Assembly: GCA_000002445.1 (NCBI GenBank)
Contig: CP000068.1
Location: 1,216,001-1,280,000, forward strand
Reading direction: 5' to 3'
DNA length: 64,000 nucleotides
From: Trypanosoma brucei
Taxonomy: Eukaryota
Shown: positions 13,989-64,000 of the stretch, in pieces
How the letters are laid out: each line of letters opens with the position of its first letter
Position numbering within the stretch: position 1 is the stretch's first letter
Translations under genes and position numbers: made by a program
The notes under the pieces: generated by a model
What the model was told of the DNA's origin: nothing
What the model saw: the letters and a program-made list of their open reading frames with translations, nothing else
Database searches by the model: none

Positions 13989-16900
13989 AGATAGATGCCG
14001 CCGATTTTTTCTTCTTTTTGCGTTTCGCCTTGCCACAATATGCGCGGCTGGGCAGTCTACACATGGAACTGAAAGGAACTTTTGCGCTTTGGGAGGGTTT
14101 GGGGTTGTTGACACTTGGTTTGTTGTCGTTGTTGTCGTTGGTATGGCGAAATAATGTGTTTAATTGTTTTCGGTCGTTCGCTCACATTCCCATATCCTTT
14201 CGGCAAAAAAGTACAGGAGTGGTGCGGGAAGAAATCTTTGTTTTTTTTTTTTTGAAAACTTGCGTCGGGAATGCTTTGGGCTTACGTTTTTTCTCGGATT
14301 GGTAACCTTCACCCCTCTTTTTTTCTATTACTCAGCAGTCGTCTGCAAGAGGGTGTAACTTTTAAGTGCCAAACATGCTTGACTCCGTACGTCCACCGCT
14401 AACGGAAGTCGAGTGGTTGACCAGTGTCAGAGCTTTTATGGAGTTTGTTCGACAAAAGGGGCCAACTCCTTTCCAATTTGATTTTTGACCTGCTCGAAAC
14501 CCCAGACTAATTTATCACGTGGATGGTCAACTGACCATTGAAAACGGGAATCTAATGGTTTATTTTGACCAACAGCATAAAATGGAGATGGCTTCATGAA
14601 GACAATCAATGGTAAGCTTCACATTTCCAAGGAATGCGGATTTCCCCATGGAAAGCGAAGAGGCGCGAGCAGCTCTACAGACGGAGTGGGCGACAACATT
14701 GGGAGCCACAGAATCAGCGCTTTATTATCAGTTTGAAAGTGCATGTGCCCAAATGGCTGATGAAAATTTTCGGGTGCAACCGAATGCAAGCGAACTGCTG
14801 CTTTGGTGCATGCAGCAACAACTAACGCAAATGCAAGAAAAAATAAAACGGCAGGCCTAAACGATTGAAGCGTTGCAGAAACAGATGACGGCTCCAGAAG
14901 GGAAAAAAAGCTAAAGAAGAAAAGAGCCAGCAACGTCCCGGAAATAATGATGATGGAAAGTTTAAACTTATGGACCAATGGGTATTGGAGGGACACACGG
15001 AACAACAGGCGACAACAACTGCTCCTCTTCCCAGAGTGGTAAGTATGAGAGGTGCTTTCCAGGGCTTACGAGAGAAGGCGTCGCCGTTTGGGATAAGAAG
15101 AGAGGAAAAGATGCGCTCCTTTGATGGCGCAGTGGATTACACGAAGCGCAGGGGTCCCAATCAACTTATCACGGCTTACCAATATGTGTTCCCCGCGACT
15201 GTATCACCGGACCCAGTGTACAGGGAAACACGGAAAATCTTTGTGTCATGGCTTATGGGACCGCAGAATGGAATTATATCAGAGGGGTATTAACGATTGG
15301 GAAAACACTTTTATACGCAGTTGCGCTTGATTCAAACTGTTTAAGACAACCCTGGGGTGAGAATGCAGGATATCCGCGATGCTATAGAATTCCCTCACAA
15401 AAAGGACTACATATTCCTGCAATCCGCTCTAAAAGCAAAGAAACAGAAACAATCGATTCTACTGAACCAGTAACGATGTTACACATGCGGTCGAGTGGGG
15501 CATTACAGTGCAACCTTTAGGATAAACAAGACGGCATCAGAAAAGAGACCAAAAAGATACAACAGACCCCCGAAGCAATGAACTCAAACGCCCTTCATGA
15601 TAGCGTAGCTAAAGTTTCACAAAATAAATGCCTTGTGGACCATTTTGCAGTGGAAAAACATAAGCCGTGCAGGAGGAAATAACCCGAAAAAAGGCGAGAG
15701 CAGCATGGCACATGAAAATAAAACATTCCGCAACAGCCGATCAACGGATGGGGAGGGGTTTTCCACAAGGAGGTAGAGTGGCTCTGCTAACGGTTTTACA
15801 CCGAAAAACAGCAGCAAAATCTATCAACGGAGTAACTATTGTTATTCCAGTTCCCACGCGAAATGATCCATACATCTTGGCGTTGGCCTCAGAAGCCAAC
15901 AGAATAGCAATGTGAATGTGGGAATGATTTCCCTTCCGTGGATTTGACAGAGGATGATGCAAGCAGCGAGTAAACAATTTGATGAGGTTTGGAGCATTAT
16001 GAATAGCACAGATGATGTGGAAAGAGAGAAAGTATCAAACAAGGAGTCTGAAATTGCACATTGCAGAAAAGTATGCCCAAATAATGAAGCAGCCGCGTAT
16101 CATTGGCCCAGTTTCAGAGAGACACGACAGGATGAGTTGTGTGCCATTATTTGTGATGGAAGAAAAACAGAATTGGAAGAAGGCGTTTGTTTATTGCATG
16201 ACCAAAGGCTAAAAAGAGCAGGGATGATTATGAGGCATATCTCCCATTGGGTCACTTTTCCCAGTATTTAAATACTCTCCATGACCAGTCTGTGGCATTG
16301 TTTGATCTAAAGTCATTCCTCTCCCAAGTGAAGTTACCTGAGGATATTCGGGCAGGGTTCCGATACGTTAGCAAAAATGAGGAATTAGTGAATTTGAATC
16401 GACTCCCCATCAGTTAATAAAGAGAGCCCTGGAATTTTACACACCATTACAAAGCTCTTTTTAGAAGGCGCCGATGTCGTGAAGCTGCAGCAGGCGACCC
16501 CTGAAAGATTGAGGACTCAAACATGGATATGCAACATATGTATTAGTGTGAGGCGCATGACGTGGTTAAATGTCGTGGAAACAAAATAGTTACGAGCATG
16601 GAGGAATGTGGGGCACACTATCATTGGTGACTCACAAAAGATGACACAACAATGCGATTTTATTGGAGTTTTAGTTTAAACATGAAAACCAGACAGTATG
16701 GCTGGGACAACGAAAGTGATACAACAATTCCGAGTATCCCTTGCTATGTGAAAAAAACTACCATAGAATAAATGGAAACTGTTGTATCACGCATGATGTA
16801 CGTGACAGCAGTGAGAAAACAATAGCTTTCTTAATACTACTGCTACTTATTTTTTTAAATGGTAGCATGATATTTGTCATTATGCAATATGGTCCTGATG

Positions 16901-18180
16901 CGACCCAATAATTTAACCGTGCCACCACACACAGACACATACACATACACATATGCGCTACAGCTAAAAAAAAAATGGATGTGCATTTTGATAAAGAAAA
17001 CACCAATGAATTCGCCGCGAGTTGTAGCAACTGTGACCATGATGGTAACGGATTCTTCCACGCAAAGATGATGGGGACGGTTTTACAATTCCTCAATTCG
17101 GAAAAGAAGTTCTTAACTGAAAGTGGTGCTTGTGAAACTGCGGTCCAGTTGTGAATATTTGCCTTCTGAAAGAGATGGAAGAGTCTCGCACATGTATGCG
17201 TGAACGACACGGCGGTGATGCATAATATTATTATTATTAAAAATATGGTGGGAATTGCAACACACATTCCAATGCCATGGTTCATGAGGCTTTAGCCATA
17301 GATGGAGTGTGTTGCAAAATGGAAAGATTAATTTTTCACAGAGTTACGTGACCTCAGGAGGATAACCTCGCGGGTGCCCAAAGGTCAAGCAAAGTGGAGC
17401 ACGGGAAGTGAGTGAAGTGCGCTTTCAGACACTTCCACATCGTAAATCATAGTGGTGGTTAAATGATTATATCGTTTTCTCTTTTTTTTTTTCAGATATG
17501 ACTCACATCTAATCAAAGCACATTGTTTGAGAGGAAACATTTTTTTTTCTCTTCCTTGTTATTCTTTCTATTAACTCTGTTAGAGGGAAATCAGGCTAGA
17601 CCATTCCTTCTATTTGATACTAGAAGCCATTGACCGGTTTTGTCGATTGTCATCTCCTCTTCATGCTCTTTTCCTATTATTATTTTTCTTTTTTTTTCAG
17701 GGCGGGATGTGCGTCTGCAGCGTCATTTAGGCCGTCTTTAACCACTGAACGAGGCAAAAGAGGTTTTGAAACAAGGTTAAACGCAGACAACCTTCTTCGC
17801 AATGGGAAAAAAAAAATTGAACACCACCGAGTGGCGTCAGTGATGACGCTGCACTTTGGAAAACCGGTGCATTATATTTGGGAACAAGGGTAGAAGGCGA
17901 CATAGAGCTTATTTGTTTGTTTTTAGTGCCCTGTTCCTTTTTGTGCAGTGGCAACAACTCTTCACTTGGTAGGAATACTCCACCAATTCACACAAGCACA
18001 TTAGCCTCCGGTAGAGAAGGTGACGAGACTCATTTAACCAACAAGTGACGTATTCCTGTAGCGGCTGCCGCATTTTTCGCAGCTCTGATCGTGGCGGTGC
18101 AAACGTGGTTTAGTGTAACCACATCTTTTCTGCAACATTCAGAAAAAGAAAGAGAGATAGTGAAAGCATGTTCTTTATCT

Positions 18181-18190
18181 GGGGGGGGGG
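18181..18190. repeat. G10 homopolymer followed by aGGGaGG.
   Basis: Direct read; it sits inside the gene-poor interval. Confidence 0.9.
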
Positions 18191-20330
18191 AGGGAGGCGT
18201 CCGGTGACGCCTTCATGCTTCTCCCAGTTTCTTCGGGCTTCTATATTTAAGCAGGTTGATCTACAAAGTACCAAAAGTCTAGCGGTGGCCGCTTGTGTGC
18301 GTTATCCCCTCTTAACCCAAGTTGTTTTGTTTACTGGTTTTGGTGCAGTGTGAGAGTTTGTGGATGTATGCGCACGTCTTCCACTTAACCTCACTTCCAT
18401 GAGGAAGTTACCGCTGCGGCCAGCTGGCTTCGGGATCGAGCTTCCTCGTGCAACATTTGTGTGGTCTTAGTTTCCTATAATTTTCCAAAGTTTGCGTGTT
18501 CCGTAACGTTGCCCCTAGCAGTCGGTAGCGGATTTTCCTTTGTCTCTTCATCCTCTTCCGGGTTAACTGCTGCGTTTTCCTCATCATCATATTTATGTTC
18601 TGTTGCGCTTTTCTTCCTAACGCAGCCGACCTATTTCCGCTGCCTGCAGCATCACTTTTAACTGCTCCCCGACATCTCCTTGGAACATTGAAATCGATGC
18701 GAGAACTCAAACCTCGCGCTGGGAATTACCTCCACAACGTTGGGCATTTAATCCTTCCCTCACCCGGGGTTTTGCGGTCGTCTCGTAATCCTTCCTTGCT
18801 ACCAACCATTGATGGAAGCCGCGTTTCAACAACTGATCGTGTGTGAGATCTTTCGTTTTTTTTTTGTTCCTTAGTGTTCCCATCGAAGCTGCGACGCGAC
18901 CGCTGGGCTAATGTTAGCGCGAGCCCCACCACAGCCGTCGCTTCCGTCTCCCGCCTCCCCCCGTTTGAGCATATCTGAACCACTTTTCGCTGCGCCTAAT
19001 CTCCTCCAAATTGACCCCCATGAACCAGGTGTCGCTCCTTGTTTCCTCATCCAGTGGCCGCAGCGTGTCTGCGGTAATCGCTTAAAACGGACCTCATCCA
19101 GGGACTTTTCCTTTCGCGCGTTGAAAATTTGGGCCCCTTGTCTGCCAATGTTTCTTCCGCTCGTTCCCGCACATTGGATAAGGAACAAACCGTTCGGTTA
19201 TTTCAGCTGCGTTCTTCCCTGTGCGGTGCCGGTTTGTCCAACGAGTGGTGTGGGAGCCCAATTGACATGTCCGATAGGTCTCTTGTAACAGCTGCGATGC
19301 TATGAAATTAGGCTGATGAAAAACGCCTAAGCAAGGTCTGTAGCGAGTCACCCTTCGTGGCCAGGAGCACATACGCATTCGTTGCCACATTGTTGACAAT
19401 ATTACGAACTTCTCAACAAAACGTCCCCAGCCCTCACTTCAGTTTGTCACACGGGACCGTTCGTCTCGATACTAGTCTGGATGTTCCCATCATGCTCGAC
19501 GAAGAGCGATAAGCAAAGACCGACGTCGGGAGGAATGAAAGGGCCACGTCGCATCTCGGCGTTTTTTTCGGGAGGGGGAGCCCTGCGTGCTCACGGGGCG
19601 TTAACTATTTCGACAGCTGCACCGCCGACGCTGTCACCATTTTTTAAAAAACCTACAGGGTTTTAGCTGCCGGTTCGCGCCGGCGAAAATGGCCCCGGCG
19701 CCGATGTGAGATAGTTGCTTTAGGGGAGATGATTTATTGCTGAAAAGGAATGTGGGTGGAAACAAAAGGATCGTCTAAATTTCAAAGGGTATAATCAACA
19801 AAGCATGAGAATGAAAAATTTATCAGAATGTCCTTTCAACCCCTTAGATCGGAATTTGCTTTTTTTCAGGACTCACGTTTGTACGAATGGCCGCGCCCGA
19901 AAACGAAAAGGAGTTTTAGTTACAGGCTGTAAGGGCACGGGCATTCGCTGAGTTGACAAACAGCGAATGGGGACGAAGGGTCTATTTGGCCTTTAATTCT
20001 CCAATTTTTTAAATTCGTTTGTGCACGTGTGCAAGGCACATTTTTTTCCTTTTTCCTGGCACCGCGCAGCGCAGCAAATACTTGAGCGGTGCTTCAGGGG
20101 AGGTAAATCCTCCCGAGAAGATAAAGAAGAAGGCCTCTGTTTCATCTGAGAACATAAATTAAGTGCAAGCAAGTGCAAAATAAATACATGGCGAGGCGCC
20201 ACAACTAGAGCACACACTGGAAGAAGGAGGGGCATGTATCCTGTTAGTCTAACCCATCATTTTCCTCTCTTTTTTTCCGGTATGGTTTTAGAGAGTCTTC
20301 AAAAAGGTCGTAAAGGCGAAGGTGTGAAAC

Positions 20331-21764
20331 ATGGCACAGGGCAAAGCTGCTTTTTTACTAATATTGTGTGTTTGCTCCTGCTGGCACCTCTCTTCAGCGG
20401 ACACAGAAGCGATCAAGGAAACAGCAATCAGAGAAGTGTGTGAGCTTTCAAAAACATTGAAAGGCACACCCTTTGCCATAACTCAGAGATGGAAACATAT
20501 CGAGGCCTTGATTTCGACCTTTGAGAGGTTGCTGCGAAGACTGGAGTTAATTAACCTTCTGTGCTGTGAAGACGAAGATAGCGTAAGCATTTTGAAACTC
20601 TACACCCAAAGCCAGATTGCAAGTTTAGAAGTGCTAATGAAGGCTCTTATGGAAAGGGGACCGAACGCCGCGGCGTTCGCGGCATACGCAGCAGGGAGGT
20701 TGGATGAGTTTGTTGCCGTATTCACGCAGTCGGTGGGGAAGACACCGCGAACAAACGCGTGCGTAATTGCGGATTCCGGCATGAGAAGGTGGGACCAGGC
20801 AGCGGCGAATGGATGTGAGCATAACGTAGTGGGAAACGCGGCTCAGAATTTCCTTGATTTGGAAGTCTTATTGAAAACGACATTGTTGACAAGAGGAAAC
20901 CAAAAGGGAGAAAGCAAGCAGTGCCCACTAACAAAGAGCGATTTGAGTGGCTATGCGACGGTGGACGACGCCCCTGACAGAATAAAGTGGGCAGGCGGGC
21001 TTTTGACCGTACACAAAATGTATGGATGGAAAGAAGACGGATGGTCTACAAACGGAAGGAACGTCGAATTCATCAAAGAGGCGGCAGAACAATTCAAAGA
21101 AATTAAAAAAGTCCTCGAGAAACAGCTGCCGAACGGCCTTGACAGCATCGACGCACTAAACGCTTTTTTGAAAAGGGAAGAGCCGGACGCGATGATGAAA
21201 GATGCAATCAAAACGCACCAGGGGTGGGAAGAAGAGAAAGACGATAAAACGATAATTGAGAAAATCAAGGAGATATTTGGAATTGGGGAACCATGTGCAA
21301 AGATTGAATTTATCGAAACGCTTATAAGGACTAATGTTTCTGCTAGAGAATCGGGCTGCACAAAGCAAATTGACTTGTTTCAACTCACTACTCGGCAAAT
21401 GGAAGAAGTAAAGGAACGCCGCCTCGATCAATTACGTAAAACGAAGACAGAAGCGGAGAATTATCCACGGGACATGGCAAAATTGTCGGCATTAAAAACT
21501 AATACAAACACAAAGCAAGGTGAGTACGGAGAGTGCCAGTTTCTATGCAAGCGATACAAGAACGCTAAAGCAGAAAACGAGGCAACGGATGCCGCACCCA
21601 ACTCTCCGGCAGCAGCAAGGAAGTGTCGTGGGAAAACGGAAAACGATTGCAAAGATGAGTGCAAATGGGACGGAAATGTCTGCAAAAATTCGGACGAAAC
21701 ATCAGATTACTCCAGAGTGTGTTACTCCCCTCTTTTTCCAGTCTTACTTCTTTCCTTATTTTAG
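20331..21764 (+). CDS. VSG-related (variant-surface-glycoprotein-like) protein in a chromosome-internal position.
   Basis: N-terminal signal peptide MAQGKAAFLLILCVCSCWHLSSA. A long helical N-domain with scattered Cys. A C-terminal Cys motif CRGKTENDCKDECKWDGNVCKNS typical of VSG type-2 C-terminal domains. It ends in the hydrophobic tail SPLFPVLLLSLF, like a GPI-addition signal. 477 aa. Confidence 0.6.
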   Translation: MAQGKAAFLLILCVCSCWHLSSADTEAIKETAIREVCELSKTLKGTPFAITQRWKHIEALISTFERLLRRLELINLLCCEDEDSVSILKLYTQSQIASLEVLMKALMERGPNAAAFAAYAAGRLDEFVAVFTQSVGKTPRTNACVIADSGMRRWDQAAANGCEHNVVGNAAQNFLDLEVLLKTTLLTRGNQKGESKQCPLTKSDLSGYATVDDAPDRIKWAGGLLTVHKMYGWKEDGWSTNGRNVEFIKEAAEQFKEIKKVLEKQLPNGLDSIDALNAFLKREEPDAMMKDAIKTHQGWEEEKDDKTIIEKIKEIFGIGEPCAKIEFIETLIRTNVSARESGCTKQIDLFQLTTRQMEEVKERRLDQLRKTKTEAENYPRDMAKLSALKTNTNTKQGEYGECQFLCKRYKNAKAENEATDAAPNSPAAARKCRGKTENDCKDECKWDGNVCKNSDETSDYSRVCYSPLFPVLLLSLF

Positions 21765-53601: not shown

Positions 53602-54750
53602 TCAAAGGAAACGGCCGATGAGTTCCTTGAAGGGACAATCGGGGGCGGTAACTTCATCTGCTGCTACTCTTGCAACCACAAGCTCACCACTCTGAGGTTT
53701 CCGCACCGCTGCAGGAACCGCTGGTCCCAGACCACTTGCACACACTTTCGCTACTTGAATAACACGCGCAGCGGGGAAAGTACTACAAAAGGAAGAAAAA
53801 TGAGTTACCCCGCACTCCTCACTCCTGGGTTCCTCCCTTCCAGATATCGGTTGCTCCGGATTTTTACGCAAATTCTCTAATCCTATGCGAAGTGATTCCA
53901 AGGAGCCCAACAGTGCCACGCCTATGAATCCACCAGACTCATGAAGAACAATCCCCATTGAGGACTCCACAACCTCCGGGCTACAGCCACACTCCGCATC
54001 ACGGCATCGCCACCACAGCTTTTGGACTTCCACTACAAGACCAAACAGTGGAAGCGACCTCAAAAGTAATAAAGGGTGGGGTATTTTCTCGCCACTATTT
54101 AATTTATCGTTCCATATCACACACAACCTTCTTTTGTATAGATCACGATATCTGACAACTGACGCAACGGCACCCCAAAAAAGAGTGTCGAGTCCCGCGC
54201 TTGCGGCTGAATGGTCAAAACTACCAAGTACACTAGCCTCTTTCTTCAGCATCCGTTTCCTATAACATCTCACTCGCTTCGATCCACCAGGCAGCGATTC
54301 CGCCTTAAACAGTTTAAACAAAAGAACTGCCTTAGTTATGCCGCGACAAGCTGCAAATACCTTTCTACCAGTAATTGCTCTACCAGGCGCTACGACAGAT
54401 GCCCCATGAGACATTACGGGCAAGACATTACCAACCTTGCACGAAAACAACGAGTTCTTCGGCTCAACGGAAGATTTTGCACTAACATTAGAAGGAACAA
54501 TGTATTTACAACGTTTCCTTCTTCTAAACCTAGCAGACGACCGCACATTAACGTAAAAAGGATTAACACCCCTTTTAACTGAGTTCACCAAACTATCGTG
54601 TGCCACATTTCTATTCTTCTTACGAAGCACAACAGAAGAACCATCACCCCCACAACTCCTATATAAAGAAAGTTTATCAATAATTTCATCAACAACATCA
54701 CCTACAGAACACTCATTCCCATCCTTATCAAAAACAAGAGAAGAATTCAT
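53602..54750 (-). CDS. Hypothetical protein, 382 aa.
   Basis: ATG at 54748-54750; a long ORF immediately downstream (in the transcription sense) of the histone array. Basic and Cys-rich in places. No confident family. Confidence 0.45.
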   Translation of the reverse strand: MNSSLVFDKDGNECSVGDVVDEIIDKLSLYRSCGGDGSSVVLRKKNRNVAHDSLVNSVKRGVNPFYVNVRSSARFRRRKRCKYIVPSNVSAKSSVEPKNSLFSCKVGNVLPVMSHGASVVAPGRAITGRKVFAACRGITKAVLLFKLFKAESLPGGSKRVRCYRKRMLKKEASVLGSFDHSAASAGLDTLFWGAVASVVRYRDLYKRRLCVIWNDKLNSGEKIPHPLLLLRSLPLFGLVVEVQKLWWRCRDAECGCSPEVVESSMGIVLHESGGFIGVALLGSLESLRIGLENLRKNPEQPISGREEPRSEECGVTHFSSFCSTFPAARVIQVAKVCASGLGPAVPAAVRKPQSGELVVARVAADEVTAPDCPFKELIGRFL

Positions 54751-54988
54751 CTAAACAAAAAAAAATAAATAAAGAAGCTAATCGCATCTCCAGATGATCT
54801 AGTGAGGAGTGTATGGCACAGAAGGGAAGTTAAAATAAAGTAAAGTGAGAAAAATGGAAAGAAAAAAGATATATCTTTGGTGAGGCAGAGGAGGGATGTT
54901 ACCATTACGGTGTATCAACCTCCTGGCCATCTGCTATCTAAGTGCGGAGCGGCAATAACGCCGTCTCAACGAACACACGTCTTGTGCA

Positions 54989-55291
54989 TTATGCATAACC
55001 GTACAGAATCTTGCCGCGCTTGCGAAGCGCATTGACCACGTCAACAGCCGTTACAGTTTTTTTGCGGGAGTACTCAGTGTATGCCGTCGCATCACGAACA
55101 ACACCCTCCACAAATGACTTTAGCACACCACGCACCTCGTCGTAGATAACGCCAGAGATGCGTTTCACTCCACCACGGCGGGCGAGGCGGCGGATGGAAC
55201 CGCGGGTGATTCCGCGCACATTCTCACGGAGGACCTTCTTCTGGCGCTTCTGCGATCCCTTAGCCTCACCACTCTTCTTACCCTTCGCCAT
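54989..55291 (-). CDS. H4: Histone H4 (copy 1).
   Basis: 100-aa product [100 protein letters not shown]. This is the trypanosomatid H4 signature with a conserved histone-fold core. The ATG is at 55289-55291. The 170-aa ORF-track entry is an upstream in-frame extension through the spacer. Confidence 0.95.
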
Positions 55292-55353
55292 ATTGTATGT
55301 GCTGTTTGTGCTTGTAGTTTGCTTTCTGTACATCAGAACATACACATGTAACG

Positions 55354-55386
55354 TAAGAGAAAGGGATGAAGAAGGAGGAGTTGAAA
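55354..55386 (-). promoter_or_regulatory. Representative polypyrimidine tract (read on the - strand) plus downstream AG acceptors upstream of each H4 CDS. It repeats at +736 n in most units.
   Basis: The reverse complement reads ttcaactcctccttcttcatccctttctcttac, followed by ...acAGaaagcaaactacaAGcacaaacagcacatacaatATG. This is the kinetoplastid trans-splicing signal arrangement, implying a 5' UTR of about 30-45 nt. Confidence 0.5.
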
Positions 55387-55724
55387 TGGGAATAGTAGAA
55401 TCACTAAAAGAAATGGCAGAGTGTGGTGGCACGGCACAGGCCCGCATTCGGATATTTGTGCCCGCGCAACTCACACAGAGAGATTTGTGCGGCCACAACA
55501 AGAAAATGGCACCGCAATCGCATCTCCAGATGATCTAGTGAGGAGTGTATGGCACAGAAGGGAAGTTAAAATAAAGTAAAGTGAGAAAAATGGAAAGAAA
55601 AAAGATATATCTTTGGTGAGGCAGAGGAGGGATGTTACCATTACGGTGTATCAACCTCCTGGCCATCTGCTATCTAAGTGCGGAGCGGCAACAACGCCGT
55701 CTCAACGAACACACCTCTTGTGCA

Positions 55725-56027
55725 TTATGCATAACCGTACAGAATCTTGCCGCGCTTGCGAAGCGCATTGACCACGTCAACAGCCGTTACAGTTTTTTTG
55801 CGGGAGTACTCAGTGTATGCCGTCGCATCACGAACAACACCCTCCACGAATGACTTTAGCACACCACGCACCTCGTCGTAGATAACGCCAGAGATGCGTT
55901 TCACTCCACCACGGCGGGCGAGGCGGCGGATGGAACCGCGGGTGATTCCGCGCACATTCTCACGGAGGACCTTCTTCTGGCGCTTCTGCGATCCCTTAGC
56001 CTCACCACTCTTCTTACCCTTCGCCAT
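55725..56027 (-). CDS. H4: Histone H4 (copy 2).
   Basis: Identical 100-aa product; 736-bp offset. Confidence 0.95.
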
Positions 56028-56460
56028 ATTGTATGTGCTGTTTGTGCTTGTAGTTTGCTTTCTGTACATCAGAACATACACATGTAACGTAAGAGAAAGG
56101 GATGAAGAAGGAGGAGTTGAAATGGGAACAGTAGAATCACTAAAAGAAATGGCAGAGTGTGATGGCACGGCACAGGCCCGCATTCGGATATTTGTGCCCG
56201 CGCAACTCACACAGAGAGATTTGTGCGGCCACAACAAGAAAATGGCACCGCAATCGCATCTCCAGATGATCTAGTGAGGAGTGTATGGCACAGAAGGGAA
56301 GTTAAAATAAAGTAAAGTGAGAAAAATGGAAAGAAAAAAGATATATCTTTGGTGAGGCAGAGGAGGGATGTTACCATTACGGTGTATCAACCTCCTGGCC
56401 ATCTGCTATCTAAGTGCGGAGCGGCAATAACGCCGTCTCAACGAACACACGTCTTGTGCA

Positions 56461-56763
56461 TTATGCATAACCGTACAGAATCTTGCCGCGCTTGCGAAGC
56501 GCATTGACCACGTCAACAGCCGTTACAGTCTTTTTGCGGGAGTACTCAGTGTATGCCGTCGCATCACGAACAACACCCTCCACAAATGACTTTAGCACAC
56601 CACGCACCTCGTCGTAGATAACGCCAGAGATGCGTTTCACTCCACCACGGCGGGCGAGGCGGCGGATGGAACCGCGGGTGATTCCGCGCACATTCTCACG
56701 GAGGACCTTCTTCTGGCGCTTCTGCGATCCCTTAGCCTCACCACTCTTCTTACCCTTCGCCAT
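56461..56763 (-). CDS. H4: Histone H4 (copy 3).
   Basis: Identical 100-aa product. It carries the synonymous aaa to aag variant (the + strand reads cagtcttttt instead of cagttttttt). Confidence 0.95.
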
Positions 56764-57196
56764 ATTGTATGTGCTGTTTGTGCTTGTAGTTTGCTTTCTG
56801 TACATCAGAACATACACATGTAACGTAAGAGAAAGGGATGAAGAAGGAGGAGTTGAAATGGGAACAGTAGAATCACTAAAAGAAATGGCAGAGTGTGGTG
56901 GCACGGCACAGGCCCGCATTCGGATATTTGTGCCCGCGCAACTCACACAGAGAGATTTGTGCGGCCACAACAAGAAAATGGCACCGCAATCGCATCTCCA
57001 GATGATCTAGTGAGGAGTGTATGGCACAGAAGGGAAGTTAAAATAAAGTAAAGTGAGAAAAATGGAAAGAAAAAAGATATATCTTTGGTGAGGCAGAGGA
57101 GGGATGTTACCATTACGGTGTATCAACCTCCTGGCCATCTGCTATCTAAGTGCGGAGCGGCAACAACGCCGTCTCAACGAACACACCTCTTGTGCA

Positions 57197-57499
57197 TTAT
57201 GCATAACCGTACAGAATCTTGCCGCGCTTGCGAAGCGCATTGACCACGTCAACAGCCGTTACAGTTTTTTTGCGGGAGTACTCAGTGTATGCCGTCGCAT
57301 CACGAACAACACCCTCCACAAATGACTTTAGCACACCACGCACCTCGTCGTAGATAACGCCAGAGATGCGTTTCACTCCACCACGGCGGGCGAGGCGGCG
57401 GATGGAACCGCGGGTGATTCCGCGCACATTCTCACGGAGGACCTTCTTCTGGCGCTTCTGCGATCCCTTAGCCTCACCACTCTTCTTACCCTTCGCCAT
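57197..57499 (-). CDS. H4: Histone H4 (copy 4).
   Basis: Identical 100-aa product; 736-bp offset. Confidence 0.95.
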
Positions 57500-57932
57500 A
57501 TTGTATGTGCTGTTTGTGCTTGTAGTTTGCTTTCTGTACATCAGAACATACACATGTAACGTAAGAGAAAGGGATGAAGAAGGAGGAGTTGAAATGGGAA
57601 TAGTAGAATCACTAAAAGAAATGGCAGAGTGTGATGGCACGGCACAGGCCCGCATTCGGATATTTGTGCCCGCGCAACTCACACAGAGAGATTTGTGCGG
57701 CCACAACAAGAAAATGGCACCGCAATCGCATCTCCAGATGATCTAGTGAGGAGTGTATGGCACAGAAGGGAAGTTAAAATAAAGTAAAGTGAGAAAAATG
57801 GAAAGAAAAAAGATATATCTTTGGTGAGGCAGAGGAGGGATGTTACCATTACGGTGTATCAACCTCCTGGCCATCTGCTATCTAAGTGCGGAGCGGCAAT
57901 AACGCCGTCTCAACGAACACACCTCTTGTGCA

Positions 57933-58235
57933 TTATGCATAACCGTACAGAATCTTGCCGCGCTTGCGAAGCGCATTGACCACGTCAACAGCCGTTACAG
58001 TCTTTTTGCGGGAGTACTCAGTGTATGCCGTCGCATCACGAACAACACCCTCCACAAATGACTTTAGCACACCACGCACCTCGTCGTAGATAACGCCAGA
58101 GATGCGTTTCACTCCACCACGGCGGGCGAGGCGGCGGATGGAACCGCGGGTGATTCCGCGCACATTCTCACGGAGGACCTTCTTCTGGCGCTTCTGCGAT
58201 CCCTTAGCCTCACCACTCTTCTTACCCTTCGCCAT
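57933..58235 (-). CDS. H4: Histone H4 (copy 5).
   Basis: Identical 100-aa product; synonymous variant as in copy 3; a unit-specific spacer SNP (ggctac instead of ggccac, near 58437). Confidence 0.95.
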
Positions 58236-58668
58236 ATTGTATGTGCTGTTTGTGCTTGTAGTTTGCTTTCTGTACATCAGAACATACACATGTAACGTAA
58301 GAGAAAGGGATGAAGAAGGAGGAGTTGAAATGGGAATAGTAGAATCACTAAAAGAAATGGCAGAGTGTGGTGGCACGGCACAGGCCCGCATTCGGATATT
58401 TGTGCCCGCGCAACTCACACAGAGAGATTTGTGCGGCTACAACAAGAAAATGGCACCGCAATCGCATCTCCAGATGATCTAGTGAGGAGTGTATGGCACA
58501 GAAGGGAAGTTAAAATAAAGTAAAGTGAGAAAAATGGAAAGAAAAAAGATATATCTTTGGTGAGGCAGAGGAGGGATGTTACCATTACGGTGTATCAACC
58601 TCCTGGCCATCTGCTATCTAAGTGCGGAGCGGCAATAACGCCGTCTCAACGAACACACGTCTTGTGCA

Positions 58669-58971
58669 TTATGCATAACCGTACAGAATCTTGCCGCGCT
58701 TGCGAAGCGCATTGACCACGTCAACAGCCGTTACAGTCTTTTTGCGGGAGTACTCAGTGTATGCCGTCGCATCACGAACAACACCCTCCACAAATGACTT
58801 TAGCACACCACGCACCTCGTCGTAGATAACGCCAGAGATGCGTTTCACTCCACCACGGCGGGCGAGGCGGCGGATGGAACCGCGGGTGATTCCGCGCACA
58901 TTCTCACGGAGGACCTTCTTCTGGCGCTTCTGCGATCCCTTAGCCTCACCACTCTTCTTACCCTTCGCCAT
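58669..58971 (-). CDS. H4: Histone H4 (copy 6).
   Basis: Identical 100-aa product; synonymous variant as in copy 3. Confidence 0.95.
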
Positions 58972-59404
58972 ATTGTATGTGCTGTTTGTGCTTGTAGTTT
59001 GCTTTCTGTACATCAGAACATACACATGTAACGTAAGAGAAAGGGATGAAGAAGGAGGAGTTGAAATGGGAATAGTAGAATCACTAAAAGAAATGGCAGA
59101 GTGTGATGGCACGGCACAGGCCCGCATTCGGATATTTGTGCCCGCGCAACTCACACAGAGAGATTTGTGCGGCCACAACAAGAAAATGGCACCGCAATCG
59201 CATCTCCAGATGATCTAGTGAGGAGTGTATGGCACAGAAGGGAAGTTAAAATAAAGTAAAGTGAGAAAAATGGAAAGAAAAAAGATATATCTTTGGTGAG
59301 GCAGAGGAGGGATGTTACCATTACGGTGTATCAACCTCCTGGCCATCTGCTATCTAAGTGCGGAGCGGCAATAACGCCGTCTCAACGAACACACCTCTTG
59401 TGCA

Positions 59405-59707
59405 TTATGCATAACCGTACAGAATCTTGCCGCGCTTGCGAAGCGCATTGACCACGTCAACAGCCGTTACAGTCTTTTTGCGGGAGTACTCAGTGTATGC
59501 CGTCGCATCACGAACAACACCCTCCACAAATGACTTTAGCACACCACGCACCTCGTCGTAGATAACGCCAGAGATGCGTTTCACTCCACCACGGCGGGCG
59601 AGGCGGCGGATGGAACCGCGGGTGATTCCGCGCACATTCTCACGGAGGACCTTCTTCTGGCGCTTCTGCGATCCCTTAGCCTCACCACTCTTCTTACCCT
59701 TCGCCAT
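59405..59707 (-). CDS. H4: Histone H4 (copy 7).
   Basis: Identical 100-aa product; synonymous variant as in copy 3. Confidence 0.95.
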
Positions 59708-60140
59708 ATTGTATGTGCTGTTTGTGCTTGTAGTTTGCTTTCTGTACATCAGAACATACACATGTAACGTAAGAGAAAGGGATGAAGAAGGAGGAGTTGA
59801 AATGGGAATAGTAGAATCACTAAAAGAAATGGCAGAGTGTGATGGCACGGCACAGGCCCGCATTCGGATATTTGTGCCCGCGCAACTCACACAGAGAGAT
59901 TTGTGCGGCCACAACAAGAAAATGGCACCGCAATCGCATCTCCAGATGATCTAGTGAGGAGTGTATGGCACAGAAGGGAAGTTAAAATAAAGTAAAGTGA
60001 GAAAAATGGAAAGAAAAAAGATATATCTTTGGTGAGGCAGAGGAGGGATGTTACCATTACGGTGTATCAACCTCCTGGCCATCTGCTATCTAAGTGCGGA
60101 GCGGCAATAACGCCGTCTCAACGAACACACCTCTTGTGCA

Positions 60141-60443
60141 TTATGCATAACCGTACAGAATCTTGCCGCGCTTGCGAAGCGCATTGACCACGTCAACAGC
60201 CGTTACAGTTTTTTTGCGGGAGTACTCAGTGTATGCCGTCGCATCACGAACAACACCCTCCACAAATGACTTTAGCACACCACGCACCTCGTCGTAGATA
60301 ACGCCAGAGATGCGTTTCACTCCACCACGGCGGGCGAGGCGGCGGATGGAACCGCGGGTGATTCCGCGCACATTCTCACGGAGGACCTTCTTCTGGCGCT
60401 TCTGCGATCCCTTAGCCTCACCACTCTTCTTACCCTTCGCCAT
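60141..60443 (-). CDS. H4: Histone H4 (copy 8).
   Basis: Identical 100-aa product; 736-bp offset. Confidence 0.95.
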
Positions 60444-60876
60444 ATTGTATGTGCTGTTTGTGCTTGTAGTTTGCTTTCTGTACATCAGAACATACACATG
60501 TAACGTAAGAGAAAGGGATGAAGAAGGAGGAGTTGAAATGGGAATAGTAGAATCACTAAAAGAAATGGCAGAGTGTGGTGGCACGGCACAGGCCCGCATT
60601 CGGATATTTGTGCCCGCGCAACTCACACAGAGAGATTTGTGCGGCCACAACAAGAAAATGGCACCGCAATCGCATCTCCAGATGATCTAGTGAGGAGTGT
60701 ATGGCACAGAAGGGAAGTTAAAATAAAGTAAAGTGAGAAAAATGGAAAGAAAAAAGACATATCTTTGGTGAGGCAGAGGAGGGATGTTACCATTACGGTG
60801 TATCAACCTCCTGGCCATCTGCTATCTAAGTGCGGAGCGGCAATAACGCCGTCTCAACGAACACACCTCTTGTGCA

Positions 60877-61179
60877 TTATGCATAACCGTACAGAATCTT
60901 GCCGCGCTTGCGAAGCGCATTGACCACGTCAACAGCCGTTACAGTTTTTTTGCGGGAGTACTCAGTGTATGCCGTCGCATCACGAACAACACCCTCCACA
61001 AATGACTTTAGCACACCACGCACCTCGTCGTAGATAACGCCAGAGATGCGTTTCACTCCACCACGGCGGGCGAGGCGGCGGATGGAACCGCGGGTGATTC
61101 CGCGCACATTCTCACGGAGGACCTTCTTCTGGCGCTTCTGCGATCCCTTAGCCTCACCACTCTTCTTACCCTTCGCCAT
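60877..61179 (-). CDS. H4: Histone H4 (copy 9).
   Basis: Identical 100-aa product; 736-bp offset. Confidence 0.95.
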
Positions 61180-61612
61180 ATTGTATGTGCTGTTTGTGCT
61201 TGTAGTTTGCTTTCTGTACATCAGAACATACACATGTAACGTAAGAGAAAGGGATGAAGAAGGAGGAGTTGAAATGGGAATAGTAGAATCACTAAAAGAA
61301 ATGGCAGAGTGTGGTGGCACGGCACAGGCCCGCATTCGGATATTTGTGCCCGCGCAACTCACACAGAGAGATTTGTGCGGCCACAACAAGAAAATGGCAC
61401 CGCAATCGCATCTCCAGATGATCTAGTGAGGAGTGTATGGCACAGAAGGGAAGTTAAAATAAAGTAAAGTGAGAAAAATGGAAAGAAAAAAGATATATCT
61501 TTGGTGAGGCAGAGGAGGGATGTTACCATTACGGTGTATCAACCTCCTGGCCATCTGCTATCTAAGTGCGGAGCGGCAATAACGCCGTCTCAACGAACAC
61601 ACCTCTTGTGCA

Positions 61613-61915
61613 TTATGCATAACCGTACAGAATCTTGCCGCGCTTGCGAAGCGCATTGACCACGTCAACAGCCGTTACAGTTTTTTTGCGGGAGTACTCA
61701 GTGTATGCCGTCGCATCACGAACAACACCCTCCACAAATGACTTTAGCACACCACGCACCTCGTCGTAGATAACGCCAGAGATGCGTTTCACTCCACCAC
61801 GGCGGGCGAGGCGGCGGATGGAACCGCGGGTGATTCCGCGCACATTCTCACGGAGGACCTTCTTCTGGCGCTTCTGCGATCCCTTAGCCTCACCACTCTT
61901 CTTACCCTTCGCCAT
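61613..61915 (-). CDS. H4: Histone H4 (copy 10, the promoter-proximal and most upstream unit).
   Basis: Identical 100-aa product. The distal 5' flank diverges from the other units beyond about 61990. Confidence 0.95.
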
Positions 61916-62092
61916 ATTGTATGTGCTTTTTGTGCTTGTAGTTTGCTTTCTGTACATCAGAACATACACATGTAACGTAAGAGAAAGGGATTAAAAAAGG
62001 CATACGTGCTGTGTAGAAAGTTTCATTAATTAACTTTTTTTGATACTTATGTTTGGATTTGTTTTTTTCTTTTCGTTGCGGTATTGGTTATT

Positions 62093-64000
62093 TTATTTAC
62101 TTTTTTGTGGGGTGGGATTATTTTTTATTTTTTTTAAACGTTTTTCTTCTTTTTTCTTTTTTATTTTTTTCTTCTTTTTCTTTTCCGTTTCGAAGTTGCC
62201 GTTGTCGCTACTGCTGATGTCTTCATCTTCATTGTCTGAGAATAGTTCTCCCTTTGCTGCCTTGATAAGACGTGTGAAGGAGTCAGAGCTGTGTACGCTG
62301 ATGTCTCCATCGTCATAGTCGTTGCTGCTCTGTTGAGGGCTGTTGTCATCTGTATGATCGTCACTGTCCACTGCATCTGTCGTTCCCTTTGGTGCGCTGA
62401 TGTCTTCAAGAGCCGTTTTGCGTGAAATCTTTCCACTACGCTGAAGACGTCGAAGGCGACGAAGTTTCTTTGCTCGCTCATTATCTGCAGCGGAGTCTTG
62501 TGTAACGCGTTGTCTTAACCGTTCAGCAAATTTCTCGGGCACGTCGCCAAGGTCATTATCACTTCCACTGCCACCTTCGACATTAATACTGATGTCTTGC
62601 CCTTCATTTGCTACGCGCATATTGATTTCATCCTCTTCCGCATCGTCATCCTCATCGTAGACAACTCTCTTACTGAGGCCAAGGTCACGCACACGAAGGT
62701 CAGCAGACTCAATATACTTCCGAACCTTGCGTTTAGAAAGCCCTGCCATTCGTTCGGTAAATGTCAACTGCATCCCTTCATCCAGATGATCCTCGTTGCC
62801 TTTTTCGTGCGGCTTTTTGACTAGAAAAGGGTCATTTTTCTCTTCGTCTTCTCCGTTGATGTTTGCATCGGCAGCTAAATCAACATCCGTGCTGTCGGTT
62901 GTTGCATACCGCTGTTTCTGTTGAAGCGTGCGGAACATGTCGGAGGCAGTCAAGTGCCTTTCACGTCGTGACTTTGCATCTGCTACCTCTTTCGCGTCAC
63001 GTTTCGCCATGAAGTTAACAACATCCCACGGAAGATTCTTCGCTCCCCGCTGCAAATTCCCCAACTCTGACATGTCCGGAACCTTCATCAAACCAAGGGA
63101 ATGGGCAAATGGTGCTACATCGATAGATTTCACATCAAAAACAAGTTTATTCGCTGCAAAGTACACAGAGCGTAGATAAGCAATAAATGCCTTCTGGGCC
63201 TCATACTTGAGGCCCTGTACTACGAGTGCAACAAATATCTCCTTCGATTCCCGGAGCATTTGGGGACGTACCGCAATCTCCCGTAGTGGAATGTGCTTGT
63301 GGGCCAAAAAGGACAGCATTGGTACCTCCCGCGGGGTTAGGAAAAGTAGACTGACGCCCCGAGCACCCGCCCGCGCCGTACGACCTGCTCGATGAATATA
63401 AGTTTGAGCGCTGTCTGGACAATCGAACTGCACAGACCAGTGAATAAGTGGGAAATCAAGCCCACGTGCTGCGACATCGGTGCAAAACAGGACCGCATTC
63501 TTGCAACGACAGAACGTGAGGAATACCTCTTCACGGCGGAACTGTTTCATTTTACTAGTAAGGCACATACATGGCAGGTGCATCTTCTTCAGTATTTTAG
63601 CGAAGGCGAGATACATGTACCGCACTTGGTTGCACGTACTGACGAACACAACAAACTTGTCATTCGGGTGGCGCTTCAGGAAGAGCAGCAGTACGTCCAA
63701 CTTGCGATGCAGTTCCACAACGACGAAGTTCTGACAAAGTGTGGATGGGGTTGGGGCGGCGCACTCAGCATGCGCCGACACGTACCGTTGATTCCGCAGA
63801 GACATCTGCCCGAGCATTTGCACATCCGTTGTTTGTGTCGCCGAGAACATCAAAGTCTGACGCTGCGTTGGAAGTTGCTTGAGAATGCCACTCAGCACCT
63901 CGCGGAACCCCATGTCAAGCAGCCGATCAGCTTCGTCCATAACAAGCATTTGAAGATTATCAGTCACAAGGCTATCGTCATCCTCAAGGTGGTGCAATAC
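62093..64000 (-). CDS. DEAD-box ATP-dependent RNA helicase, 5'-truncated by the window end, nucleolar Dbp4/DDX10-like or Spb4-like with a long charged C-terminal tail.
   Basis: Motif II VMDEADRLLDMGF, III MFSATQT, V LFCTDVAARGLDFP, and VI YIHRAGRTARAG. A DUF4217-like segment follows (KSIDVAPFAHSLGLMKVP), then an acidic tail and a Lys-rich terminus (KKKKKKIKKKKEEKRLKKIKN). Motifs Q, I and Ia must lie beyond nt 64000. Confidence 0.85.
   Translation of the reverse strand, partial: VLHHLEDDDSLVTDNLQMLVMDEADRLLDMGFREVLSGILKQLPTQRQTLMFSATQTTDVQMLGQMSLRNQRYVSAHAECAAPTPSTLCQNFVVVELHRKLDVLLLFLKRHPNDKFVVFVSTCNQVRYMYLAFAKILKKMHLPCMCLTSKMKQFRREEVFLTFCRCKNAVLFCTDVAARGLDFPLIHWSVQFDCPDSAQTYIHRAGRTARAGARGVSLLFLTPREVPMLSFLAHKHIPLREIAVRPQMLRESKEIFVALVVQGLKYEAQKAFIAYLRSVYFAANKLVFDVKSIDVAPFAHSLGLMKVPDMSELGNLQRGAKNLPWDVVNFMAKRDAKEVADAKSRRERHLTASDMFRTLQQKQRYATTDSTDVDLAADANINGEDEEKNDPFLVKKPHEKGNEDHLDEGMQLTFTERMAGLSKRKVRKYIESADLRVRDLGLSKRVVYDEDDDAEEDEINMRVANEGQDISINVEGGSGSDNDLGDVPEKFAERLRQRVTQDSAADNERAKKLRRLRRLQRSGKISRKTALEDISAPKGTTDAVDSDDHTDDNSPQQSSNDYDDGDISVHSSDSFTRLIKAAKGELFSDNEDEDISSSDNGNFETEKKKKKKIKKKKEEKRLKKIKNNPTPQKSK

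What the first reader, a model, noticed from the sequence alone, without database searches (positions are those of the whole stretch)
54779..61992. Ten-unit histone H4 tandem array whose variants are shared between non-adjacent units
All ten H4 CDSs encode an identical protein. The only CDS polymorphism is a synonymous aaa/aag Lys codon, present in copies 3, 5, 6 and 7. Spacer SNPs are likewise shared among non-adjacent units. One variant (ggcaacaacg versus ggcaataacg, with acacacctcttg versus acacacgtcttg) occurs in units 2 and 4. Another (PP/PS and G/D on the two mirror ORFs, which are the same nucleotide) occurs in units 2, 4, 6 and 7. A third, T/I, occurs in units 2 and 3. This patchwork distribution, rather than a gradient along the array, points to gene conversion or unequal crossing-over homogenising the array, with purifying selection holding the protein invariant.
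Basis: seen in the sequence. Interest (0 to 1): 0.5.

Follow-up and report, generated by a model that had tools for sequence, protein, structure and literature searches.

The report
Trypanosoma brucei histone H4 gene array
This is the already catalogued ten-copy histone H4 gene array on Trypanosoma brucei TREU927 chromosome 5, whose few single-base variants are shuffled among copies as expected for a repeat kept uniform by unequal exchange and gene conversion; it is real but ordinary.

Summary
The array is real. It spans window 54780-61992 on the minus strand, with a period of exactly 736 bp and no indels: nine full units plus a 589-bp partial unit. There are ten 303-bp CDSs, all encoding the same 100-aa histone H4. 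The coordinates match Jackson 2007's array 'Tb39 histone H4' exactly (chr 5, 10 copies, 1270989-1277915), so the window is T. brucei TREU927 chr5:1,216,001-1,280,000.

It missed a second synonymous CDS SNP (F60 TTT/TTC, unit 2). It mis-scored the acacacC/Gtcttg site, whose G form is in units 1, 3 and 6. It also omitted three clear singleton variants plus a mismatch at the array edge.

Of five informative sites, 7 of 10 pairs fail the four-gamete test in either unit phase (Rm >= 3). A tree without exchange needs at least 4 parallel hits (P about 1e-5 to 1e-6). There is no positional gradient. Compared with the orthologous T. b. gambiense array, units group strictly by genome, with two fixed differences. 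Exchange among units is therefore supported.

Two caveats remain. Other assemblies show 6, 1 or 1 copies, or a contig break, at this locus, and the chr 5 array was never validated against reads. Purifying selection cannot be shown from two SNPs (P = 0.065). The finding is already known and of low interest.

The parts
54780..61992 (-). Histone H4 tandem array: nine complete 736-bp units plus a 589-bp partial unit. Unit 1 starts at 54780. Unit 10, the first in the direction of transcription, starts at 61404.
   Evidence: Self-match at lag 736 with sharp edges at 54780 and 61992 and only 32 lag mismatches. Unit table. The span from first to last CDS is 6927 bp, the same as Jackson 2007 Table S3.
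54989..55291 (-). H4 CDS, unit 1 (last in transcription order). The other nine CDSs lie at +736n: 55725-56027, 56461-56763, 57197-57499, 57933-58235, 58669-58971, 59405-59707, 60141-60443, 60877-61179 and 61613-61915.
   Evidence: All ten translate to the same 100-aa protein. Best solved-structure match is PDB 8com chain B, 'Histone H4', E = 8e-57 over residues 2-100; that entry is the T. brucei nucleosome core particle.
61613..61915 (-). H4 CDS, unit 10 (first in transcription order). Only 77 nt upstream of its ATG are shared with the internal spacers.
60444..60876 (-). Representative 433-bp intergenic spacer. It holds the 3' UTR of the upstream copy and two pyrimidine-rich tracts (about 60757-60705 and 60572-60504). 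The first AG after the second tract is at 60479-60478, the predicted trans-splice acceptor, which would give a 5' UTR of about 34 nt.
   Evidence: Read directly from the sequence. The acceptor and UTR assignments are inference from the general trypanosome rule (pyrimidine tract followed by AG) and have not been mapped.
55848..55848 (-). Synonymous CDS SNP F60 TTT->TTC (unit column 333), in unit 2 only. The TTC allele is fixed in DAL972 and present in T. b. equiperdum.
56530..59474 (-). Synonymous CDS SNP K78 AAA->AAG (unit column 279) at 56530, 58002, 58738 and 59474 (units 3, 5, 6, 7). The AAG allele is fixed in DAL972.
54979..58659 (-). 3'-UTR SNP 10 nt after the stop codon (unit column 200). 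It is G at 54979, 56451 and 58659 (units 1, 3, 6) and C elsewhere. G is the state of the 3'-terminal unit in all six assemblies examined.
55692..57164 (-). 3'-UTR SNP (unit column 177), C at 55692 and 57164 (units 2 and 4).
56129..56865 (-). Spacer SNP (unit column 614, 102 nt upstream of the ATG) at 56129 and 56865 (units 2 and 3).
56162..59842 (-). Spacer SNP (unit column 647, 135 nt upstream of the ATG) at 56162, 57634, 59106 and 59842 (units 2, 4, 6, 7). It lies 33 bp from column 614, and all four haplotypes of the two sites are present.
58438..61928 (-). Singleton SNPs: column 715 at 58438 (unit 5), column 91 at 60758 (unit 9) and column 525 at 61928 (unit 10, 13 nt upstream of the ATG). 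The column-525 T allele is the majority allele in DAL972.
53602..54750 (-). Downstream flanking gene, a conserved hypothetical protein of 382 aa. It anchors the locus across assemblies.
   Evidence: Exact match to XP_845086.1 / AAZ11527.1 (T. b. brucei TREU927) and to T. equiperdum OVI. No Pfam family.
62093..63997 (-). Upstream flanking gene, a DEAD-box (SPB4-like) RNA helicase. Its C-terminal part is in the window and the ORF runs off the window end.
   Evidence: Pfam Helicase_C, DEAD and CTE_SPB4. The same neighbour is present in L001, L003 and L004.

Best explanation
WHAT IT IS: the canonical histone H4 gene array of Trypanosoma brucei brucei TREU927, chromosome 5 (Tb927.5.4170-4260; 'Tb39' in Jackson 2007). 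It lies inside a long minus-strand polycistronic transcription unit.

HOW IT WORKS: trypanosome protein-coding genes have no individual promoters. Dosage of this abundant protein is therefore raised by repeating a 736-bp cassette. Each cassette holds the 303-bp CDS and a 433-bp spacer, and the spacer supplies every copy with its own polyadenylation region, pyrimidine tract and trans-splice acceptor.

HOW IT EVOLVES: misaligned homologous recombination between units keeps the copies about 99.6% identical. This can be unequal crossing-over between sister chromatids or homologues, and/or short-tract gene conversion. Because exchange breakpoints fall inside units, each new or inherited SNP spreads to its own subset of units. 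The result is a mosaic with no tree-like or positional structure. Edge units are less fully homogenised.

SHOWN HERE: the array anatomy, H4 identity, synteny, four-gamete failures, lack of a gradient, and clustering of units by genome.

INFERRED: the exchange mechanism and its type, the splice and poly(A) signals, and the role of selection.
For: Identity:
- The H4 protein matches PDB 8com_B at E = 8e-57.
- The flanking protein is identical to TREU927 XP_845086.1.
- Jackson 2007 Table S3 lists array 39 as histone H4, chr 5, 10 copies, 303 bp, 1270989-1277915. That span of 6927 bp equals 54989-61915 here.
- Tb927.5.4170 and Tb927.5.4260 are both used as H4 identifiers in papers.

Context:
- All large ORFs from 23171 to the window end are on the minus strand.

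Exchange:
- 7 of 10 informative pairs have four gametes in either unit phase, including pairs only 33 and 79 bp apart. Rm is at least 3.
- At least 4 homoplasies would otherwise be needed, P about 1e-5 to 1e-6.
- Mantel r = -0.02.
- Alleles 200G, 279C, 333G and 525T are shared with DAL972 and/or T. b. equiperdum, so they are inherited variants rather than recurrent mutations.
- With other strains included, CDS sites 180 and 234 (54 bp apart) also show all four haplotypes.

Concerted evolution:
- Mean differences are 2.9 within the window, 1.0 within DAL972 and 5.7 between them. Differences at columns 618 and 622 are fixed in every internal unit, and each unit's nearest neighbour is in its own genome.

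Edge effect:
- The 3'-terminal unit keeps 200G in all six assemblies.
- The 5'-terminal unit keeps 525T.

Independent corroboration of one recombinant type:
- The T. equiperdum OVI contig reproduces unit 1's 177T-200G-279T haplotype.

Literature:
- Jackson 2007 classes this array as 'invariant', evolving in concert by unequal crossing-over.
- Mulindwa et al. 2021 report H4 copy-number increases in cultured lines, estimated from read depth but not statistically significant, and note that tandem repeats facilitate recombination.
Against: - Unit order, copy number and within-unit haplotypes rest on a single 2005-era Sanger assembly of 99.6%-identical repeats. Jackson 2007 states that such arrays can be mis-assembled into chimaeric copies, and validated only chromosomes 9-11 with reads.
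- Other assemblies give 6, 1 and 1 copies or a break at this locus.
- Incompatibility shows no dependence on distance (PHI-type P = 0.8). That is what consensus chimaeras would also produce, although five sites give almost no power.
- Jackson's Table S1 shows no gene-conversion event for array 39.
- Nothing here separates gene conversion from unequal crossing-over, or mitotic from meiotic exchange.
Confidence: 0.72

Rival explanations
1. Assembly artefact. The array is real, but the order of units, their number and some within-unit SNP combinations are products of assembling near-identical 736-bp repeats from reads of about 0.5-1 kb. Reads from different units, or from the two homologues, were piled together and consensus bases were called column by column. 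This would create apparent recombinants and a patchwork.
For: - Jackson 2007 Methods describe exactly this risk for arrays with under 5% divergence. Voucher reads were available only for chromosomes 9-11.
- The TREU927 reference collapsed about 8 HSP70 repeats to one.
- The same H4 locus appears as 6 copies in DAL972 and 1 copy in T. b. equiperdum. It is 1 copy in a short-read Logan contig, and the contig breaks there in OVI.
- Incompatibility is independent of distance.
Against: - As assembled, the longest exact internal repeat is 1103 bp and only five repeat pairs reach 700 bp. Paired Sanger reads could therefore have ordered the units.
- Unit 1's haplotype is reproduced by an independent assembly, OVI.
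- The alleles themselves (200G, 279C, 333G, 525T) are confirmed in other strains.
- Sites 614 and 647 are 33 bp apart, within any single read, so a chimaera there needs mixed pile-ups rather than mis-joins.
- The concerted-evolution signal against DAL972 does not depend on unit order.
Confidence: 0.25
2. Hybrid-array origin. The mosaic arose mainly from meiotic recombination between two diverged parental arrays, a gambiense-like type (200G/279C/333G/525T) and a TREU927-consensus type. Ongoing intrachromosomal gene conversion would then play little part. This is a sub-case of 'exchange', but with a different timing and partner.
For: - Four of the nine variable sites carry alleles that are fixed or in the majority in DAL972 or T. 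b. equiperdum.
- Variation is concentrated in units 2-7, while units 8-10 and unit 1 are near consensus.
- Units two apart are slightly more alike than neighbours (2.4 vs 3.1 differences, P = 0.05). That would fit unequal exchange in a two-unit register.
Against: - No unit carries the full gambiense-like haplotype. 333G (unit 2) is never together with 279C or 200G, although those sites are only 54 and 133 bp away. Many fine-scale breakpoints are needed in any case.
- Five variable sites (91, 177, 614, 647, 715) are private to this array and are themselves shuffled.
Confidence: 0.25
3. Stepwise duplication with no exchange. The shared variants would reflect the duplication history plus recurrent mutation at the same sites.
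For: Three of ten site pairs are compatible. All changes are single-base substitutions.
Against: - The largest mutually compatible set has only two sites, and the minimum tree needs 9 steps for 5 sites, which means at least 4 homoplasies. Simulation gives P = 2.5e-6 and the Poisson approximation 1.5e-5.
- Several alleles are shared with other subspecies.
- The fixed differences from DAL972 in all units cannot arise without homogenisation.
Confidence: 0.01

Closest known systems
Array 'Tb39 histone H4' of Jackson 2007 (BMC Evol Biol 7:54, PMC1855330). T. brucei TREU927 chr 5, genes Tb927.5.4170-4260.
   Same: It is the same object. Chromosome, copy number (10), CDS length (303 bp) and span (6927 bp) match, as does GC3 (0.617 in the paper, 0.61 here). 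[quoted passage not shown] It concludes that the array evolves in concert by unequal crossing-over.
   Different: The paper's Table S1 shows no gene-conversion event for this array and gives no SNP map. The site-by-site mosaic found here (5 informative sites, 7 of 10 pairs incompatible) is a finer description, not a new phenomenon.
Other homogenised T. brucei tandem arrays: histones H2A, H2B and H3, alpha/beta-tubulin, HSP70 and others.
   Same: They are head-to-tail cassettes inside polycistronic units. They show near-identical copies, copy number that varies between strains and in culture, and clustering of units by species.
   Different: None in kind. H4 has a short unit (736 bp) and no length variation at all among units.
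Classical concerted evolution of repeated genes: rDNA arrays and the sea urchin and Drosophila histone repeats (from general knowledge; rDNA, globin and hsp examples are cited in Jackson 2007).
   Same: Paralogues within a genome are more alike than orthologues between genomes. Partial spread of variants produces mosaic units, and edge units are less homogenised.
   Different: In metazoan histone repeats, each unit carries all five histone genes with their own promoters. Here one histone gene is repeated on its own, and expression depends on polycistronic transcription plus trans-splicing.

Membership tests
Histone H4 | Sequence homology to H4 across the histone fold and the N-terminal tail | tested here: met
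   PDB 8com_B 'Histone H4', E = 8e-57 over residues 2-100. More than 90 further H4 chains match at E <= 1e-33. Pfam gave only a sub-threshold histone-fold hit (CENP-T_C, 22.6 bits against a 28.1 cut-off), consistent with the reported divergence of kinetoplastid histones (abstract listed).
Histone H4 | The protein is incorporated into nucleosomes | not testable with these tools
   Taken from the literature. The 8COM nucleosome core particle was built with Tb927.5.4170 H4.
Tandem gene array evolving in concert (Jackson 2007, 'invariant' class) | At least four head-to-tail copies with a constant period | tested here: met
   Ten CDSs, nine spacings of exactly 736 bp.
Tandem gene array evolving in concert (Jackson 2007, 'invariant' class) | Homoeology: the array sits at the same genomic position in related genomes | tested here: met
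   The same DEAD-box helicase and 382-aa flanking genes are present in DAL972 (L003), T. b. equiperdum (L001), OVI (L002) and a Logan contig (L004).
Tandem gene array evolving in concert (Jackson 2007, 'invariant' class) | Cladistic criterion: units within a genome are more alike than units between genomes | tested here: met
   Mean differences are 2.9 within the window, 1.0 within DAL972 and 5.7 between. Differences at columns 618 and 622 are fixed, and every nearest neighbour is in the unit's own genome. The comparison covers only two subspecies, and one of the assemblies may be collapsed.
Tandem gene array evolving in concert (Jackson 2007, 'invariant' class) | Copy number varies between strains (signature of unequal crossing-over) | tested here: inconclusive
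   Assemblies show 10, 6, 1 and 1 copies or a break, but these counts depend on the assembly. Read-depth copy-number differences for H4 are reported in the literature, though the culture-related increases were not statistically significant.
Gene conversion / intra-array recombination | Incompatible (four-gamete) site pairs or chimaeric units | tested here: met
   7 of 10 pairs are incompatible, Rm >= 3, and the result holds in either unit phase. Recurrent mutation is excluded at P about 1e-5.
Gene conversion / intra-array recombination | Compatibility depends on distance (PHI-type test) | tested here: inconclusive
   P = 0.8 with 5 informative sites and 120 permutations, so there is no power.
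Gene conversion / intra-array recombination | Recombinant haplotypes verified on single sequence reads (Jackson's voucher criterion) | not testable with these tools
   No read data are available here, and Jackson had reads only for chromosomes 9-11. Partial substitute: the OVI contig reproduces unit 1's 200G-279T haplotype.

The most novel reading that the evidence does not exclude
If the assembly is correct, breakpoints fall inside intervals of 33, 54 and 79 bp, and five sites in 736 bp are close to linkage equilibrium. That would mean exchange among core housekeeping repeats in T. brucei is dominated by very short conversion tracts, occurring far more often than mutation. The H4 array could then serve as a natural, selectively neutral reporter of the same segmental-conversion machinery that builds mosaic VSG genes. 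It could be measured directly in clonal lines or genetic crosses with long reads.
Probability: 0.25. Interest if true: 0.35.

Novelty: already known. Interest (0 to 1): 0.12.

Why it matters
It matters little beyond housekeeping. The finding re-identifies a catalogued array and shows the expected signature of concerted evolution. It has three practical uses.

1. It corrects the variant map, adding a second silent CDS SNP and fixing a mis-scored 3'-UTR site.
2. It shows that this array's copy number and unit order differ among public assemblies and were never validated against reads. SNP-level inferences from it, and read mapping or copy-number normalisation for H4, should therefore be treated with care.
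3. It flags over-extended H4 gene models in other annotations: 152 aa in DAL972 and 114 aa in DAL972 and a Logan contig.

Tried and rejected
- Tandem Repeats Finder returned nothing because its period limit is 500 bp. The array was mapped by lag-736 self-comparison instead.
- Pfam did not recognise the protein as a histone above threshold. Solved-structure sequence search did.
- I tried to verify the four 614/647 haplotypes independently through exact look-ups of the 152-, 161-, 170- and 118-aa extended ORF versions. None is on record. The bare 100-aa H4 is also absent from the cluster table, although one assembly encodes it.
- Logan short-read contigs only reach the terminal unit or collapse the array to one copy, so they cannot test internal haplotypes.
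- Literature searches for a long-read-resolved H4 copy number in TREU927 found none.
- No tRNA genes, no Rfam families and no other long direct repeats were found in the window.
- The 'mirror ORFs' were considered as possible genes and rejected. They have no family match. The in-frame upstream ATG (for example 60599-60597) lies upstream of the pyrimidine tract and AG, so trans-splicing would remove it (inference). The solved H4 chain is 99 aa.
- I did not run the large homologue searches or structure prediction. An outgroup would only polarise two saturated synonymous sites, and the protein's identity is not in doubt.

Full report
**Observation**

Tandem Repeats Finder found nothing because its maximum period is 500 bp. 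A lag-736 self-comparison shows near-perfect periodicity from 54780 to 61992, with sharp edges and only 32 lag mismatches.

- Ten 303-bp CDSs lie on the minus strand at 54989-55291 + 736n. All nine spacings are exactly 736 bp, and all ten translate to one 100-aa protein.
- The array holds nine full units plus a 589-bp partial unit. There are no indels.
- Full units are 99.2-99.9% identical pairwise, mean 99.6%.

**Variant map**

Positions are unit columns, with unit 1 starting at 54780 on the + strand. Ten columns vary.

| Column | Units with the minority allele | Region |
|---|---|---|
| 91 | 9 | 3' UTR |
| 177 | 2, 4 | 3' UTR |
| 200 | 1, 3, 6 (G) | 3' UTR |
| 279 | 3, 5, 6, 7 | CDS, K78 AAA/AAG |
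| 333 | 2 | CDS, F60 TTT/TTC |
| 525 | 10 | 13 nt upstream of the ATG |
| 589 | 10 | array edge |
| 614 | 2, 3 | spacer |
| 647 | 2, 4, 6, 7 | spacer |
| 715 | 5 | spacer |

Three things are not.

- The claim of a single CDS polymorphism is wrong, because of column 333.
- The acacacC/Gtcttg site (column 200) does not travel with units 2 and 4.
- Three singletons (columns 91, 525 and 715) were not reported.

The 'mirror ORFs' are a bacterial-code upstream extension of the H4 frame and an antisense ORF. Neither has a family match.

**Identity**

- The protein matches PDB 8com chain B, deposited as 'Histone H4', at E = 8e-57 over residues 2-100. It then matches H4 from many eukaryotes. Entry 8COM is the T. 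brucei nucleosome core particle, built with Tb927.5.4170 H4.
- The downstream 382-aa flanking protein is residue-identical to T. b. brucei TREU927 XP_845086.1.
- Jackson 2007 (PMC1855330), Table S3, lists array 39 as histone H4, chromosome 5, 10 copies, 303 bp, 1270989-1277915. That 6927-bp span equals 54989-61915 here, with an offset of exactly 1,216,000. The window is therefore TREU927 chr5:1,216,001-1,280,000.
- Tb927.5.4170 and Tb927.5.4260 are both cited as H4.

**Context and anatomy**

- Large ORFs lie on the + strand up to 21764 and on the minus strand from 23171 to the window end. The array therefore sits inside a long minus-strand polycistronic unit, between a DEAD-box/SPB4-like helicase and a conserved hypothetical gene.
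- Each 433-bp spacer contains two pyrimidine-rich tracts, followed by an AG about 34 nt upstream of the ATG. I infer that this AG is the trans-splice acceptor. If so, the upstream in-frame ATG used in the 152-aa models is removed from the mRNA.
- Function is inferred from established trypanosome biology and stated in Jackson 2007: repetition raises gene dosage where genes have no individual promoters.

**Test of the interpretation**

- *Four-gamete test.* Five sites are parsimony-informative. Seven of the ten pairs show all four haplotypes, including pairs 33 bp (614/647) and 79 bp (200/279) apart. The result is unchanged if pairs are taken across the unit boundary instead of within a unit. 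The Hudson-Kaplan minimum is 3 events.
- *Recurrent mutation.* The eight distinct haplotypes need a tree of at least 9 steps for 5 sites, which means at least 4 homoplasies. The probability of three or more same-site, same-type hits among 12 mutations on 736 sites is 2.5e-6 by simulation and 1.5e-5 by the Poisson approximation. Stepwise duplication without exchange is rejected, provided the assembly is right.
- *Gradient.* There is none (Mantel r = -0.02, P = 0.54). Units two apart are marginally more alike than neighbours (2.4 vs 3.1 differences, P = 0.05). This is a weak hint of unequal exchange in a two-unit register.

**Comparison with other assemblies**

The orthologous locus, with the same flanking genes, was found in five other places.

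| Locus | Source | H4 copies at the locus |
|---|---|---|
| L003 | T. b. gambiense DAL972 | 6, period 736 |
| L001 | T. b. equiperdum GCA_003543875.1 | 1 |
| L004 | short-read Logan contig (ERR7929162) | 1 |
| L002 | T. equiperdum OVI | contig ends inside the terminal unit |
| L005 | short-read Logan contig (ERR7929156) | contig ends inside the terminal unit |

- Mean unit differences are 2.9 within the window, 1.0 within DAL972 and 5.7 between the two. Columns 618 and 622 differ in every internal unit, and every unit's nearest neighbour lies in its own genome. This is direct evidence of concerted evolution.
- Four minority alleles of the window (200G, 279C, 333G, 525T) are fixed or in the majority in DAL972. 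Three of them (200G, 279C, 333G) are also carried by the single copies in L001 and L004. They are inherited variants at different stages of replacement, not recurrent mutations.
- With these strains included, CDS sites 180 and 234, which are 54 bp apart, also show all four haplotypes.
- Column 525 is polymorphic in both arrays.
- The 3'-terminal unit carries 200G in all six assemblies, and the 5'-terminal unit of the window keeps 525T. This fits weaker homogenisation at array edges.
- The OVI contig reproduces unit 1's 177T-200G-279T haplotype independently.

**Caveats**

- *Assembly.* Jackson 2007 states that for arrays under 5% divergent the number and order of copies are hard to determine, and that copies may appear chimaeric through mis-assembly. 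Voucher reads were available only for chromosomes 9-11, so this chromosome 5 array was never validated.
- The TREU927 reference is known to have collapsed about 8 HSP70 repeats to one.
- The differing copy numbers above show how strongly this locus depends on the assembly.
- Partly against the artefact reading: as assembled, the longest exact internal repeat is 1103 bp and only five repeat pairs reach 700 bp. Paired Sanger reads could therefore have ordered the units. Silent collapse of identical units remains possible.
- *Selection.* Two synonymous and no non-synonymous SNPs gives P = 0.065, and SNP density in the CDS versus the spacer gives P = 0.32. The array alone therefore does not demonstrate purifying selection. 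Jackson 2007 attributes the invariance to homogenisation, because non-coding parts are equally uniform.
- *Mechanism.* The data cannot separate gene conversion from unequal crossing-over, or mitotic from meiotic exchange.
- Mulindwa et al. 2021 report that core-histone gene copy number, H4 included, was higher in cultured lines than in the starting isolates. None of the increases was statistically significant. They note that tandem repeats facilitate inter- and intra-chromosomal recombination. This fits unequal exchange being active at such arrays.

**What is known, and novelty**

The object is array Tb39 of Jackson 2007. That paper classes it as 'invariant ... very occasional silent changes', with non-coding regions more variable than the CDS, evolving in concert by unequal crossing-over. 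The row for this array in its Table S1 shows no gene-conversion event. The SNP-level mosaic described here is therefore a finer description of a known array and a textbook process, not a new kind of feature.

**Verdict**

Exchange and concerted evolution are supported. The selection clause is not shown, and an assembly artefact is not excluded.
- The finding is already known and of low interest.

Noticed in passing
window 20331-21764 (+): An intact 477-aa ORF has a strong A-type VSG N-terminal domain (Pfam Trypan_glycop, E = 7.5e-76) and a sub-threshold VSG C-terminal domain. It is the last gene of the + strand unit and abuts the convergent strand-switch, so it is a chromosome-internal VSG or VSG-related gene in the core of chr 5.
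   Followed up: partly
window about 21765-23170: Convergent strand-switch region. Large ORFs are on the + strand up to 21764 and on the minus strand from 23171 onward, and cumulative GC skew turns in the 20-26 kb region. It is presumably a transcription termination region. No tRNA genes or Rfam RNAs were found there.
   Followed up: partly
window 26055-26873 (-): A 272-aa ORF matches Pfam GARP (glutamic acid/alanine-rich protein of Trypanosoma, the BARP/GARP surface-protein family) at E = 4e-51. It lies near the end of the minus-strand unit, close to the VSG-like gene on the other side of the strand switch.
   Followed up: partly
window 13988-20331 and 24085-26055: Two ORF-poor, AT-rich stretches. 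The first has no ORF of 250 aa or more, with GC down to 0.41 at 16-18 kb. The second has GC 0.37 at 24-26 kb and an (AAT)n microsatellite at 25284-25320. The small ORFs tested there have no Pfam match.
   Followed up: no
L003 5737-9761 (T. b. gambiense DAL972) and L004 2657-3001: H4 gene models are over-extended. DAL972 has five 152-aa models that start at an in-frame ATG 156 nt upstream in the spacer, plus one 114-aa model. A Logan contig also has a 114-aa model. True H4 is 100 aa, and the PDB 8com chain is 99 aa.
   Followed up: partly
L001 9925-10512 and L004 (about 2600-3240): T. b. equiperdum GCA_003543875.1 and a short-read Logan contig (ERR7929162) show a single H4 copy between the same flanking genes. 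This is most simply a collapsed array. T. equiperdum OVI contig CZPT02001737.1 ends inside the terminal unit.
   Followed up: partly
window 55158-55538 (+) and the equivalent position in each unit: A 126-aa ORF runs antisense to each H4 CDS and has no family match. It is probably a by-product of H4 codon usage, which leaves the opposite strand free of stop codons.
   Followed up: partly
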